A stretch of DNA of 64,000 nucleotides from Harriotta raleighana (taxonomy: Eukaryota), in NCBI GenBank assembly GCA_050575255.1, contig JBNZDD010013714.1:4991600-5055599 (forward strand), written 5' to 3'. Each line of letters opens with the position of its first letter. The first letter of the stretch is position 1. Both the position numbers and the translations under genes were made by a program. Of the stretch, positions 27,540-34,070 are shown piece by piece. Under the pieces are notes generated by a model, which did no database searches, was not told the DNA's origin, and saw only the letters and a list, made by a program, of their open reading frames with translations.

Positions 27540-27635
27540 ATGCCAAACCAAACATCAGGGATTACTATGGGAAGATGCCACTGCAGTACTGGAAAGGGAA
27601 TGAAGATTTATTCAAGCCAGTTTCATTGCAGCCAT
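27540..27635 (+). CDS. sowah: Internal coding exon of an intron-containing Sowah (sosondowah ankyrin repeat) gene, sowah1/sowah2 type; end of the ankyrin region
   Basis: Branch-like CTAAT near 27513, pyrimidine tract and acceptor TTTTTTTTTCCAG, donor T|GTAAGT. 96 nt, phase 1-1, open frame (D/N)AKPNIRDYYGKMPLQYWKGNEDLFKPVSLQP. Matches the Sowah family motif AxxxIRDYxGKxPxQY. Confidence 0.85.
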
Positions 27636-30600
27636 GTAAGTCTTAGCGTTCTCATTGATTTTTTTTTCTTTTTCCACTTGTCAGTCGTAGGAAAGGACAA
27701 GCAGAAATAAAAGTGCGGCAGATCATTAAAAAAAAGCAAGAGAAAGAGAGCTCCAGATGGTGAAAATAATATGCAATTGACCTTCATGTTACTGATAGGG
27801 AACACACTTCATTATTAAAACTTTTGGTTAAATCGTCATAAACTAACTACAGTATTAACTCTTAGATGGACAGGAGCTATTGGCTCTAGGATTTGGCGTG
27901 AGTGTAAAATTAAGTACTTTACTGTCTGTTTGAAGTTTTTAGACATTTTGGTTATTTACTTTTTCAAAAATTGTATTATTCTTGAGATCCATATTTTAAG
28001 CCTACTAAATTACTTTCTGATAGTCATTTATTTTAGAAGAGTTTCATATTTGTTGTTTTCTCACAAAGAATAGACCTTAGCAGCACTCATATGGTTAAAG
28101 ATGACAGGATCATTATTTCTTTCATAAAACCGAAACATTTTTTTTAAAAAAACTGTTAAATTTGTCTGCGTGAAATGATGCCTGGAGCGCTATTCTTTGT
28201 ATATGAGTTTGACAAAGAAATATAATGTTATGCAAAAGAAGTTTGTGTAATTTGAAATTAATCAGCATTAATATTGTATATGGTGTAATTTATCAAGATT
28301 TGTTAATGACTTTCTTGATTTGACAGCCTTCATCATGGGGTGGGTGTAGGGGGAGAAAGGGAACTCCAGTACAGAGCATATTATCTGGACAATGAAATTA
28401 CATGATTTGGAGATCCTGAAAATCTTTTAGTTTTATACGTCCTCTAAGAATATTAGAATAATCATCAATTCAAATTTTTTTTTTTTAGGAGAGACTCTCG
28501 AAGTTTCAGTGTTACCTATCTAAAATGTAAAGTTTTGTGTTGTGATTTGTCAAACAATATGACAATGGTAGATTCTAAGTGACAATTTCTTTGCCATAAA
28601 TAAAATATTTTAATTTATTTTTAAATGTTCTTGCCCCCTCCTACACCTCCTCGTTGACAGTATTTGGGCCCTTGTAGGGACAGTTGATGCTGAAAATACA
28701 GTAGATATTTTCTGCTAATCTTTTGGTTAATAAAGTTTTGATTTTATCAAATTATTAAAGGAACGCATTTCAAGGCAGTACTTTGTAGATCAACTATTAT
28801 TCATCTGTATCACTCAGTTAATTTTCAAAAAAAACAAATAATGAAAAATTAGAACTTTTCAACAATGATTTATTCATCTGTTGAAATTGCAGTGCTAAGG
28901 AATTCTGTGGGGAAAAGAACTCATTATAGAACGAGTTTTATTTCCTTAAAATAAAAGCATGTGCCTTGGCATACAAAGCACAGGAATGATATTATGACTT
29001 TCTCATTGTAAAATAAACATGCTTCCCTATGCATAGGCCAATTCTCAAGTTAACACTTTAAGCAGGCAGCGTGAACATTATATTAACAATAATTCAACAT
29101 TACATAAACTTAAAGGTATGCTGCATGGAAATATTTAAGTGAAGTATAGAATGTGCCTTGGTGTAACTGAGCTACATGTGTAAACTAGATTTGCAGTGTA
29201 CTGTTTTCATACAGGCATACCAAAATTTAAGCAAGCTGAACATAGTAGTTTGTCTGGCAGATTGAGAAAATTCATGACTGCATATTGGTAGCAAAATAAT
29301 CTCAGTGCTATTCTTACTTTATACATAATCTGCCACATTCTTTAAAATAGATCAAGCGTATTATTGTATAAAAGACCTGCAGCAGCCAAAATTGATTGTT
29401 TCTTATATATAGATAATCGTCCACAGTTGTAAATAGACTGACGTAATTAAATTAGACATCTACATAACCACGTAATATAGATCATTGCAGACTCCTGCAA
29501 TAATTTTATGGCCAAAGCTGACCATATTTGGAGGACTGCCCCCAAAAGTCCAGTGTGCAATAAACAACAAATATTTTTTAATACTGTATAACTTTTATCA
29601 TTAAATTATAGACCTCATAACTCTTTCACAAGAACAAAAAAATGCTTAACGCCAAGAGTTTGTTGTATTCTCCGACTGTCGGATTAAATGTGCCAGGCAA
29701 GTCAGCAAGAGGTACTCCAAGCTAATCATTACGAGGATTTAGGGACTGATTTCAATTCACTGATGTTTAGAAAGGAAGCAAACACATTCAATCCATTATA
29801 AAAATGGCACAGAAGCTATTCAATAAATTCATGCTCAAGCACCAAATTTCACATGGTGATTCTTCTACAATCTGGTGCAATGCATAGTGCTGAAGTCTTC
29901 AAATCCAATGAGCTGATACTAAGTAACATTTATTCAACACTTTATTTCTTCCAGACAATCTTCATAGAAGTTCTAAAGAAGTATGGTGGTGGCGTTTTTA
30001 GTTTCAACAGGGAGTGAAATCAATCACTTCACATTACTCATGCTTCTCTCCATTTAATTACTGAATGTTTCTCAAGTCGGTTTCTCTTATCGGAATACTT
30101 AGCTTACCCAGTAACATAGCAATGACTTGCAATACTCAATATTATGGGCAAGTCATTGTTTGTGAAGTCCTATTATAGACTATTTTATTTCAAGAACAAA
30201 TCTTTTCTCTTTGACGATAGGGCAGCAGGATTATGATCCCCCTAGTTACATAATTTATAAGAATTCGTCACAGAAAATATATTTGACTATCAAACAAAGA
30301 AAATGAGTAATGTATTGGAATTATAGTTACCAGGGCTCAGTTAAATTTCACTGAATGCACTTTTGTAAATATTATAATACCTGGAAATAGACTTGTCTTC
30401 TGCACAGACTTCCTCTCTGTGGAAAGCAGGTAATCTGGGCTAAAGTACGAGATTCACAAAAGAATTAGAAATTAACAAGTCCCAGATGTGTCTCAGCTGA
30501 CCCTCTGAAACACCACTCCACAGTGATTTCACGGACCTCCGAATTGGGATCACCATCCAAGTGGGATTCCAGTGGACATGGATCTATAAAACATCCAGAA

Positions 30601-30653
30601 TTTAGTCCTCGATACATTTAATTAGACTGCATTAATTTGTAATGCAGCATTGC

Positions 30654-30971
30654 AATAATAATCCTTGCATTTGATATAGCATTTTTCACATCTTATCAAC
30701 GTCTCAAAGTGCTTCACAGAATATACTGTAAAGTGAATTCACTGTATATTTGTGGGAGAAACGCGGCAGCCAATTGCGCACAGTAGTGTCCCACAAACAG
30801 TCATGGATTGAAACAACCAATTTTATTATTATTGTGTTTTTTTGGGGAGTAATTATTATTAGGCATGTGGAGTAAGGAAACTTGCCCAAGGTTTCACCCT
30901 GATCTGCCTGGATTCGAACACAGGTCTCACACTTGTAAAGTGAGTGCTCCAACCACTGAGCCAAAGGAGTC
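30654..30971 (-). mobile_element. SINE family A, full length
   Basis: A and B boxes, core and (TTA)n tail. ORF 30704-30973 is simply this SINE translated. Confidence 0.92.
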
Positions 30972-31959: not shown

Positions 31960-32460
31960 TGCAGATCAGTGCATTGTTTGGAGGCTGTGCTAATTGTGTG
32001 TATGGATGATTTCGGATCGAAGGGAAAGTGGCTACTGCTATCAGCTGACAGTTTAATTGTCGATACTTTGAATAGTTAAGCACGAGTCAGTCTAGTCCAC
32101 AGGACTATTAAAAAATTTATTGACGAGCTCAAATGCTTATTGACGTGAAGAGAAAATACTGCGTAGGTTTAAACTTCATTTCAGGCAGACATGTTGGTGC
32201 TTTAAGAATTTGCTACTCCGTCATTTAATTATAAAAGTGCTTCAATTTCCTACACAAGACATTATAGACAGCCTCATTTGCATCTTTTTCATGTCAGAAT
32301 TCTGCTGTTGTGAAATAAATAACTAAATTAATTAAGCTTTTAAAATCAGGAAACAGCACATTGCTAAATAAAATGTCACTAATTAAAATTTAGGTGGCCT
32401 TATAGCGTGGATTTTAACTTGCTCTGGATACAGCCTGCCACTAAGTTGGTATTTATTTCA
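31960..32460. promoter_or_regulatory. Candidate conserved non-coding element in the last Sowah intron
   Basis: Repeat-free, with TGACAG, TAATT, TTTATTG, an ATTTGCAT octamer and retained CpGs. Confidence 0.4.
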
Positions 32461-33753
32461 CCACCTCAATCCATTTCTTTTAAGAAATCTGCATCTATTA
32501 TTTAGAGCGTGTATGTGTGTATATTTTATAAAGTTTGCTATTTTTTTGATTAGAAATATTTCATCCTCAAAAGTGACAGAATAAGAAAAGGTTTTAAGAA
32601 ATTTGCTATCGAGGCCGTATGATTGTCATTGCATAGGCGACACCTAGTCAGTGGTTTTAAGATGATGCACATATTCTTTCTTTTACTCTTTTGGGGCAGA
32701 AAAATTACTTTGCAGAATCTTCTCAATAAGATTCAATAAGATGGGAAAAAACAAATTGCAGGCATCTGTGGAAGATATCAATATGATGGAGGTTTTCTCA
32801 TTTCCTACTTTCTAAATTCTTAAATCAGGTATTACAGTATATGGAATAGTTGCTCAAAATACCACACTAGCAGTCTATGATTTTAATTACATTCTGTCTA
32901 AGTGTAGAATCCATTTGAACATCTAAAATTTCAGAAACCTAGATCTGTTACTTATACAGTGGATAATTATACACTTTGGGTAACTATATAGAATACAGTT
33001 ATTCAAGCCTAGATTCAGCTTCCAACCTAGAAGACTATTATTATGATACTTACACACAAGTAAAACAAATCTAATTGTATTGCGTCCTTGCACAGATTGG
33101 CTACAATGAACCAAGGCTACAATAGAAGTGACGTGACACATACAGGTGGATTCAGTGTTTGGTAAACAGAACTTTGGAAACTTTGCACACTGGTTGGCAT
33201 GAACAATTCTGATGAATATTGCTCATACGATATTGTGCAGCAAAACAGCACAAAATGGCAAAAATAACCAGATAGGAGGTCAATGCTCAGGAGACCTCAC
33301 CAGTCCTGTTGGAATGTATGGCCCCTTTATAACAGCAGCCAACAGCTATACTGATTAGCTCAGTGCAATGCACTTCCAAGTAAGATGTAACCTTTTAAAA
33401 CAGCAATCACTGACAGGTTCCACAAACCTATCAAACTATTATCTACGAAACTAAAGTATGCACAGTAGTACCATATAGTTTGCAAGTTTTTTTTTCATTC
33501 TCATAAGTGATTGTTCAATGCACAATGTAGATCGTTCAGCACCTCGGGATGTCCACCCAACATGAAGGACGGAATATAAATGCAATTTGTTGTTGTTCAC
33601 TAAACAGCACAATACTCATTTTCCCAGAAAGGAAAAGGTTAACATGCACAAAGGAACTATTTTCACACGGGAGGGCATGAAAACAATTAAATACAATTCT
33701 CTGCTTCGTAAAAGACTATTCTCCTCCCAAATGAATATTTTCCCTTTCTCCAG

Positions 33754-34070
33754 GTGGCAAATTGACGAGCGAAGATAGGCGCGCTCGTTAGCACAACAAT
33801 TTTCCGACCCTTCTGTGAAATACTCGCTCCCGCAGCCAAAACCGAATGGAGATGGAAATCTTGCCAGACGCAGAGATGGCTCTGCAGAGTGCAGAGAAGG
33901 CATTGTTACAAAAGGGCCACTCTCCTTCTTGTACCAGGAATTTGATGATGATCGAACCATTCCAAACACACTGCAATGCTGGGACCACAAGCACTTGCAT
34001 GCATACACAATGTACAAGGCAGCTTCAAGCAGTCAGTGTTTGGGTCAGGCCAACTTACACTTCTAAGTAA
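33754..34070 (+). pseudogene. sowah: Putative terminal exon of the Sowah gene, interrupted by two in-frame stops (truncated or pseudogenising)
   Basis: Strong acceptor TTTTCCCTTTCTCCAG, in phase with the 27540-27635 exon. Reads (C)GKLTSEDRRAR*HNNFPTLL*NTRSRSQNRMEMEIL...TSK*, with TAG at 33789-33791, TGA at 33816-33818 and final TAA at 34068-34070. The PxLLxxxRSRSQ motif resembles, from memory, the C-terminus of teleost intron-containing Sowah proteins. Confidence 0.6.

What the first reader, a model, noticed from the sequence alone, without database searches (positions are those of the whole stretch)
27540..34070. Intron-containing Sowah gene whose last exon carries two in-frame stops: a regulatory-block bystander gene possibly caught mid-decay
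Seen: a clean 96-nt exon with the Sowah IRDYxGKxPxQY motif splices in phase to an exon at 33754. That exon reads GKLTSEDRRAR*HNNFPTLL*NTRSRSQNRMEME and then stays open to 34070. Each stop is one substitution from a sense codon (TAG from TAC or CAG; TGA from CGA). Known: the ancestral multi-exon Sowah is linked to Irx clusters across bilaterians and was lost in tetrapods after replacement by intronless retrogenes, leaving exon remnants (Maeso et al. 2012, Genome Research). Inference: this cartilaginous-fish copy is either C-terminally truncated (last-exon stops would escape NMD) or independently pseudogenising while its introns are kept as Irx enhancers. The similarity past the stops rests on my recollection of teleost sequences.
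Basis: partly seen in the sequence, partly recalled or inferred. Interest (0 to 1): 0.75.

Follow-up and report, generated by a model that had tools for sequence, protein, structure and literature searches.

The report
Sowah gene with a clipped tail
In what is likely a cartilaginous fish, and in two closely related genomes, the intron-containing Sowah gene has an early stop codon that would remove its last 51 amino acids, a tail predicted to be floppy, so it likely still makes a shortened protein, though it may be at the start of the gene decay reported for land vertebrates.

Summary
27540-27635 and 33754 onward match the last two coding exons of an intron-type Sowah gene. The stops are not equivalent. 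TAG 33789 is also in two related DNA samples (about 99% identical), so it is real. TGA 33816 is CGA in the closest one: a later CpG change, an allele or an error. A third, inferred lesion, one extra base at 33939-33940 that bypasses the old stop, is also shared. All three lie in a 51-residue tail predicted to be disordered. The ankyrin-end exon, its splice sites and the first 11 codons are intact. Best reading: C-terminal trimming with a decaying ex-coding tail (0.5). Early whole-gene pseudogenisation stays open (0.35). No RNA evidence was obtained, the upstream exons lie outside the window, and no Irx gene was found in it, so 'decaying bystander' and 'Irx enhancers' are untested. An unnamed relative has a frameshift in the same tail.

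The parts
27540..27635 (+). Penultimate coding exon of intron-type Sowah (96 nt, phase 1 at both ends); end of the ankyrin region
   Evidence: Splice signals in sequence; 29 of 31 residues identical to C. milii P0029; tblastn E 4e-16
27636..33753 (+). Inferred last coding intron, 6118 nt, GT...AG; holds SINE copies (e.g. about 30675-30976 on the minus strand)
   Evidence: junction position matches P0029 (SLQP-C-GKLT); not seen in RNA
33754..33788 (+). Last exon, part still coding (junction Cys + GKLTSEDRRAR)
   Evidence: 10 of 11 residues identical to P0029; acceptor unchanged in X1 and X2, one synonymous change in X1 at 33770
33789..33791 (+). First stop, TAG, at Lys359 of P0029; the inferred new end of the protein
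   Evidence: No difference in X1 (contig 33579-34081, depth 6) or X2 (contig 33631-33815, depth 3); Lys in P0029 and in P0018
33792..33945 (+). Former coding tail (P0029 residues 360-409), likely 3' UTR now; holds the conserved (F/L)PxLL...SRSRSQ motif
   Evidence: Alignment A1; pLDDT below 50 over most of 347-406 in the P0029 model; no Pfam family
33816..33818 (+). Second stop, TGA, at Arg in P0029; not shared with X1
   Evidence: X1 reads C at 33816, giving CGA, a CpG site
33831..33833 (+). Arg codon, the only invariant column of alignment A1; CGC in the window, TGC (Cys) in X1
33939..33951 (+). Inferred ancestral end: ATT TGA TGA TGA lies one base out of frame, which suggests a one-base insertion at 33939-33940
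   Evidence: P0029 ends RI, P0025 and P0034 end at the same column; no indel listed for X1 or X2; C. milii DNA not seen
33946..34070 (+). Frame open to TAA 34068-34070, with no orthologue match; incidental

Best explanation
These are the last two coding exons of an intron-containing Sowah gene in which a real stop codon at 33789, shared with two closely related genomes, would cut off the final 51 residues, a tail predicted to be disordered, so the gene likely still yields a shortened protein with its ankyrin fold whole. Because the stop is in the last coding exon, the mRNA would escape junction-dependent nonsense-mediated decay if no intron follows (established rule; not tested here). The old tail likely became 3' UTR and now gathers changes freely: a shared one-base shift at the old stop (inferred), a private Arg-to-stop change at 33816 and, in X1, Arg-to-Cys at the best-conserved tail residue. 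Shown: the exons, the homology across the stops, the sharing of the first stop, the absence of the second in X1. Inferred or predicted: splicing, expression, disorder of the tail, continued function.
For: All three disruptions in the window (33789, 33816, 33939-33940) fall in the last 51 of the 94 visible codons; none falls in the first 43 codons or in the three visible splice sites. If lesions fell at random over those 94 codons this would happen with probability 0.16. Before the stop, 3 of 43 residues differ from C. milii. The AlphaFold model of P0029 has its last helix at 336-339 and block-mean pLDDT of 43-48 from residue 351 on, so a stop at residue 359 spares the ankyrin fold; the Pfam ankyrin matches end at 331. 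The acceptor and first 11 codons carry only one synonymous change in X1 and none in X2. P0018, an unnamed spliced relative, switches to the +1 frame at codon 20/21 of the same exon (10 of 19 identical to the window's +1 frame; 0 of 200000 shuffles reach the score), which hints that the tail can be lost elsewhere too.
Against: The lost tail holds a motif kept from chimaera to teleosts (Pro17, Leu19, Leu20, Arg24, Ser25, Arg26, Ser27 at 90% or more in alignment A1 of 11 rows), so it was under selection. A probability of 0.16 is weak support. The upstream exons (wHTH domain and most of the ankyrin repeats) are outside the window and unchecked. The one named elasmobranch protein among 44 hits, Heptranchias perlo P0031, ends before the ankyrin exons, though gar and bowfin models (P0032, P0033) are cut short in a similar way, so this may be an annotation problem. 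P0018's frameshift fits gene decay as well as a dispensable tail, and could be a sequencing error.
Confidence: 0.5

Rival explanations
1. The whole gene became a unitary pseudogene recently in this lineage (early exon erosion of a regulatory-block bystander, made possible by redundancy with Sowah retrogenes), and the two visible exons are young remnants.
For: Three disruptions in one exon of the window plus Arg26-to-Cys in X1. A conserved motif is lost. No named elasmobranch protein with the ankyrin part among 44 hits or in the shorter-protein search (1 hit of 6 candidates, a flatfish protein). Frameshift in P0018. Bystander exon erosion is a described fate (PMC7530604, passages), reported for Sowah in tetrapods (PMC5803294, passage).
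Against: No lesion in the 43 codons before the stop or in the three visible splice sites. The excess of differences after the stop is not significant (10 of 49 against 3 of 43, Fisher p = 0.078). At codons 24, 32 and 33 the outgroup P0018 is compatible with the window's residue and not with that of C. milii, so the tail is little eroded by missense change. The word-based searches are insensitive, so missing hits say little.
Confidence: 0.35
2. The stop is bypassed by splicing: the TAG at 33789-33791 serves as an acceptor and gives a 91-residue tail in another frame, or exon 27635 joins a different terminal exon.
For: Joining 27635 to 33792 is in phase with a frame open to 34063. C. milii has several annotated isoforms.
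Against: That AG has 40% pyrimidines in the 20 bases before it, against 75% at 33753. The other frame found no homologue among 185 candidates and no Pfam family. No second copy of the exon was found in the window.
Confidence: 0.09
3. Both stops are assembly errors and the gene is full-length.
For: TGA 33816 is absent from X1, and X2's contig leaves its letter at 33816 unaligned; no run from the window's own individual was identified (best share of words 0.70).
Against: TAG 33789 stands in contigs from two separate samples, X1 and X2 (one study). At most the second stop can be an error.
Confidence: 0.02
4. TAG 33789 is read through at a useful rate, keeping a full-length product.
For: The tail is still 79% identical to C. 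milii, and 91% over residues 386-408.
Against: A second stop in the window, the inferred shift at the old stop and Arg26-to-Cys in X1 all lie downstream, which is not what a translated tail would show.
Confidence: 0.03

Closest known systems
Callorhinchus milii 'ankyrin repeat domain-containing protein SOWAHC-like' (P0002 = XP_007887673.1; P0029, isoform X2; source names)
   Same: Same two exons and same junction; 29 of 31 and 10 of 11 residues identical before the stop; 79% identity across the last exon.
   Different: Intact: Lys at 33789, Arg at 33816, and it ends RI near 33945. The window stops 51 residues earlier.
Intron-type Sowah clade with Heptranchias, gar P0032, bowfin and teleost proteins (tree support 97/98)
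   Same: Same paralogue as P0029; the tail motif (F/L)PxLL...SRSRSQ is shared.
   Different: All 10 full-length members aligned keep the tail. Whether this clade is Maeso's Sowah1 or Sowah2 was not determined; a second clade holds gar P0049, other teleosts and four reptiles.
Iroquois-Sowah regulatory block and tetrapod Sowah exon remnants (Maeso et al. 2012, not read; known from recall and from citing passages in PMC5803294, PMC5585340, PMC3342872 and PMC12311624)
   Same: Intron-type Sowah with very large introns (more than 27.5 kb before exon 27540) in a stretch with no other detected gene.
   Different: There the gene is described as pseudogenised and lost. Here only the C-terminal tail is shown to be disabled, and neither Irx linkage nor enhancer activity was tested.
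Intronless Sowah retrogenes (L001, one 616-aa ORF)
   Same: Same ankyrin region, 47% identical to P0029 over residues 220-331.
   Different: L001 has no intron there; the window's exon is bounded by splice sites, and L001 has no blastn match in the window.

Membership tests
Intron-type (ancestral) Sowah gene | Homology to the Sowah ankyrin region | tested here: met
   94% identity to the C. milii SOWAHC-like protein; P0029 carries Pfam ankyrin families
Intron-type (ancestral) Sowah gene | Coding sequence split by introns, unlike the retrogenes | tested here: met
   AG/GT-bounded exon and a 6118-nt gap at the orthologue's SLQP-C-GKLT junction; L001 is the intronless contrast
Intron-type (ancestral) Sowah gene | N-terminal wHTH domain and full ankyrin array intact | not testable with these tools
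   Those exons are not in the window; no genome is held
Irx regulatory-block bystander | Adjacent to an Iroquois cluster | tested here: inconclusive
   No Irx-like motif (recalled motifs) and no Pfam family in 91 of 91 long ORFs; 64 kb is too short to exclude linkage
Irx regulatory-block bystander | Conserved non-coding elements in or near the gene that act as Irx enhancers | not testable with these tools
Unitary pseudogene (exon erosion) | Disabling changes shared across individuals or species | tested here: met
   TAG 33789 in the window, X1 and X2
Unitary pseudogene (exon erosion) | Lesions in the folded domains or in splice sites | tested here: inconclusive
   None in the 43 visible codons before the stop or in three visible splice sites; most exons unseen
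Unitary pseudogene (exon erosion) | Neutral evolution of the coding exons (dN/dS near 1) | not testable with these tools
   No orthologue DNA beyond four variant sites in X1 and one in X2; the protein-level contrast gave p = 0.078
Last-exon truncation that escapes NMD | Stop in the terminal exon of a spliced, expressed mRNA | tested here: inconclusive
   It is the last coding exon by homology; the two runs guessed to be RNA gave no cover of it; a 3' UTR intron is not excluded
Last-exon truncation that escapes NMD | Lost part lies outside folded domains | tested here: met
   Predicted only: pLDDT 43-48 from residue 351, last helix at 336-339

The most novel reading that the evidence does not exclude
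A cartilaginous-fish lineage is independently dismantling its Irx-linked, intron-containing Sowah gene by exon erosion, at a stage early enough that the lesions can be ordered (shared TAG and one-base shift, then private changes), while neighbouring conserved non-coding DNA is kept. With the frameshift in P0018 this would be a repeated loss outside tetrapods and a dated series for watching a regulatory gene desert form.
Probability: 0.3. Interest if true: 0.55.

Novelty: new member of a known kind. Interest (0 to 1): 0.3.

Why it matters
If only the tail is clipped, this is an ordinary lineage-specific shortening of a little-studied ankyrin protein; its use is to show that a motif kept from chimaera to teleosts can be lost. 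If the whole gene is decaying, it is an independent, recent replicate of the Iroquois-Sowah dismantling described for tetrapods, in a slowly evolving group where the order of lesions is still readable. Papers on bystander erosion note that exon remnants are rare proof (PMC7530604, passages: one high-confidence remnant in their systematic search). The two cases can be told apart cheaply with the upstream exons and RNA-seq.

Tried and rejected
1. My own first idea, a single frameshift near 33778 with the 95-aa frame 33779-34063 as the true tail: rejected. 2. RNA evidence: no RNA holder listed; X9 and X17, guessed to be RNA, laid nothing on 33602-34160. This is no evidence on expression. 3. Upstream Sowah exons: none by tblastn of 46 proteins, by a clade profile, or by 25-residue pieces of P0029. 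4. Other genes: 0 of 91 long ORFs hit Pfam; the one Rfam hit (tRNA, 51577-51648) is a SINE head. 5. Short elasmobranch fragments: 1 hit of 6 candidates, from the other paralogue. 6. Metagenomes: 0 matches for a 24-base pattern from 34300; 10 loci for P0029, none an orthologue of these exons (best 47% identity over the ankyrin region). 7. The source of P0018 could not be looked up. 8. Maeso et al. 2012 is not held; its text and supplements may already describe chondrichthyan Sowah copies. 9. Eight literature searches (listings only, except five papers read as passages) showed no report of this truncation; most subscription journals are not covered. 10. dN/dS could not be computed, for lack of orthologue DNA.
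Full report
Observation. The window has a 96-nt exon at 27540-27635 with a strong acceptor and a GTAAGT donor, and a strong acceptor at 33753. Joined in phase, they read AKPNIRDYYGKMPLQYWKGNEDLFKPVSLQP-C-GKLTSEDRRAR*HNNFPTLL*NTRSRSQNRMEME..., with stops at 33789, 33816 and 34068.

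Which frame is real. I first suspected a single frameshift, because another frame is open from 33779 to 34063. It found no homologue (0 of 185 candidates). The 31-residue exon found 27 proteins, among them P0002 at 94% identity, named by its source as Callorhinchus milii SOWAHC-like. Bony-fish-type proteins share the tail motif (F/L)PxLL...SRSRSQ. So TAG 33789 is premature, not the normal end. The orthologue ends SCTRI; the window reads SCTRN and runs on, but holds ATT TGA TGA TGA one base over, at 33940-33951. P0025 and P0034 end at about the same column. I infer a one-base insertion at 33939-33940; C. milii DNA was not seen, so its direction is not proven. The run to 34070 is incidental.

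Are the stops real. Of 24 listed runs, 20 hold part of 33754-34750, none on record as RNA. I laid 4 on 33560-34160. X1 gave one contig over 33579-34081 (depth 6) with 4 differences: 33770 C>T (synonymous), 33816 T>C, 33831 C>T and 34051 C>T, and no indel. X2 gave 33631-33815 with no difference and 33843-34084 with one (33903, synonymous); its letter at 33816 was left unaligned, a weak hint that it also differs there. So TAG 33789 and the shifted old stop are shared by three genomes about 99% alike (X1 and X2 are two samples of one study, at low depth). TGA 33816 is not shared; it is a CGA-to-TGA change at a CpG, and may be an allele or an error. In X1 the change at 33831 turns Arg26, the only invariant column among 11 rows, into Cys. 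X9 and X17 did not cover the exon, which says nothing about expression.

What is lost. In an AlphaFold model of P0029 (31 sequences, mean pLDDT 68, pTM 0.44) the N-terminal domain (about 6-75) and the ankyrin region (224-339) are confident, and from residue 351 the block means are 43-48. The stop corresponds to residue 359, so 51 residues predicted to be disordered go and the fold is spared. The tail has no Pfam family but does hold a conserved short motif, so its loss need not be harmless.

Trimming or decay. Before the stop, 3 of 43 residues differ from C. milii; after it, 10 of 49 (Fisher p = 0.078). The tail is also the faster-evolving part in teleosts. With P0018 as outgroup, codons 24, 32 and 33 fit the window's residue and not C. 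milii's, and codon 29 the reverse, so part of the difference is on the C. milii side. The three disruptions all lie in the last 51 of 94 visible codons, which random placement gives with probability 0.16. This leans to trimming but does not exclude a young pseudogene. The deciding exons are not here: no upstream Sowah exon lies in 1-27539 and no genome is held.

Other lineages. P0018 (unnamed, 77 aa) holds the penultimate exon and the first 20 codons of the last exon in frame, with Lys at the first-stop site (segment score reached by 17 of 200000 shuffles), then follows the window's +1 frame from 33817 (10 of 19 identical, 0 of 200000 shuffles). It looks like a separate frameshift in the same tail, real or an error; its source could not be looked up. 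Among 44 relatives of P0002, five are named chondrichthyan: four C. milii and one Heptranchias perlo model that ends before the ankyrin exons. Gar and bowfin models are also cut short, so annotation across large introns may explain it. A tree of 31 proteins splits the vertebrate rows into two clades, each with a gar protein; P0029 lies in one (97/98), and the other (93/92) holds four reptile proteins; one long row (Monopterus) is unplaced. L001 is an intronless Sowah, the retrogene type, and serves as a contrast.

Regulatory block. No Irx-like motif (recalled motifs) and no Pfam family in 91 of 91 long ORFs were found, which fits a gene-poor region but shows no linkage. Thirteen runs (X4-X16) hold 0.40-0.43 of the words of 33754-34750, while X9 laid nothing on 33602-34160 and 61% of the words lie beyond 34131. 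That hints at a strongly conserved block in 34160-34750, but contigs can be filtered out and I did not lay that part. The organism is likely a cartilaginous fish, from its identity to C. milii; a SINE here recalls elephant-shark SINEs (recall only), so a chimaera is possible but not shown.

Literature. Maeso et al. [quoted passage not shown] PMC7530604 (passages) describes bystander exon erosion; PMC5010895 (passages) lists amphioxus Irx-Sowah elements. Eight searches listed no report of this truncation. Maeso's text and supplements may bear on it. The scan's index held no note for this place, its relatives or this protein; one note on SOWAH microexons in another genome fits the variable KKDF...TALH stretch among the isoforms.

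Verdict. A real, lineage-shared premature stop in the last coding exon of an intron-type Sowah gene, followed by secondary changes in the released tail. C-terminal trimming 0.5, early pseudogenisation 0.35, splice bypass 0.09, read-through 0.03, artefact 0.02. It is a new instance of known kinds of event. Interest 0.3, or about 0.55 if the upstream exons prove to be decaying beside an Irx cluster.

Noticed in passing
protein P0018 against window 33771-33873: An unnamed spliced Sowah relative shifts into the +1 frame at codon 20/21 of the same last exon, beside the site of the window's second stop; possibly an independent loss of the tail.
   Followed up: partly
proteins P0052, P0053, P0057, P0065: Lacerta, Podarcis, Terrapene and Dermochelys 'SOWAHC/SOWAHA-like' proteins group with gar P0049 and teleost proteins of the second clade and vary at the microexon-like stretch. 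They may be intron-type Sowah kept in some reptiles, which would qualify 'lost in tetrapods'. Gene structure and synteny not checked.
   Followed up: partly
window 34160-34750: Possible strongly conserved non-coding block just after the last exon: 13 runs (X4-X16) hold 0.40-0.43 of the words of 33754-34750 although X9 laid nothing on the exon. An ATTAAA lies at 34434.
   Followed up: no
proteins P0030, P0031, P0032, P0033: C. milii, Heptranchias, gar and bowfin each have an annotated form that ends before or early in the ankyrin array; either a conserved short isoform or an annotation failure at microexons and large introns.
   Followed up: no
window 30675-30976 (-), 16716-16890, about 51480-51648 (-) and others: Copies of a tRNA-headed SINE; the Rfam tRNA hit at 51577-51648 is one such head.
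   Followed up: partly
window 61003-61128: A 61-nt tandem duplication (2.1 copies) that contains the window's only N (61063); may be an assembly join.
   Followed up: no
L001 708-2558: An intronless 616-aa Sowah ORF in a metagenome record, likely host DNA; used only as the retrogene contrast.
   Followed up: partly
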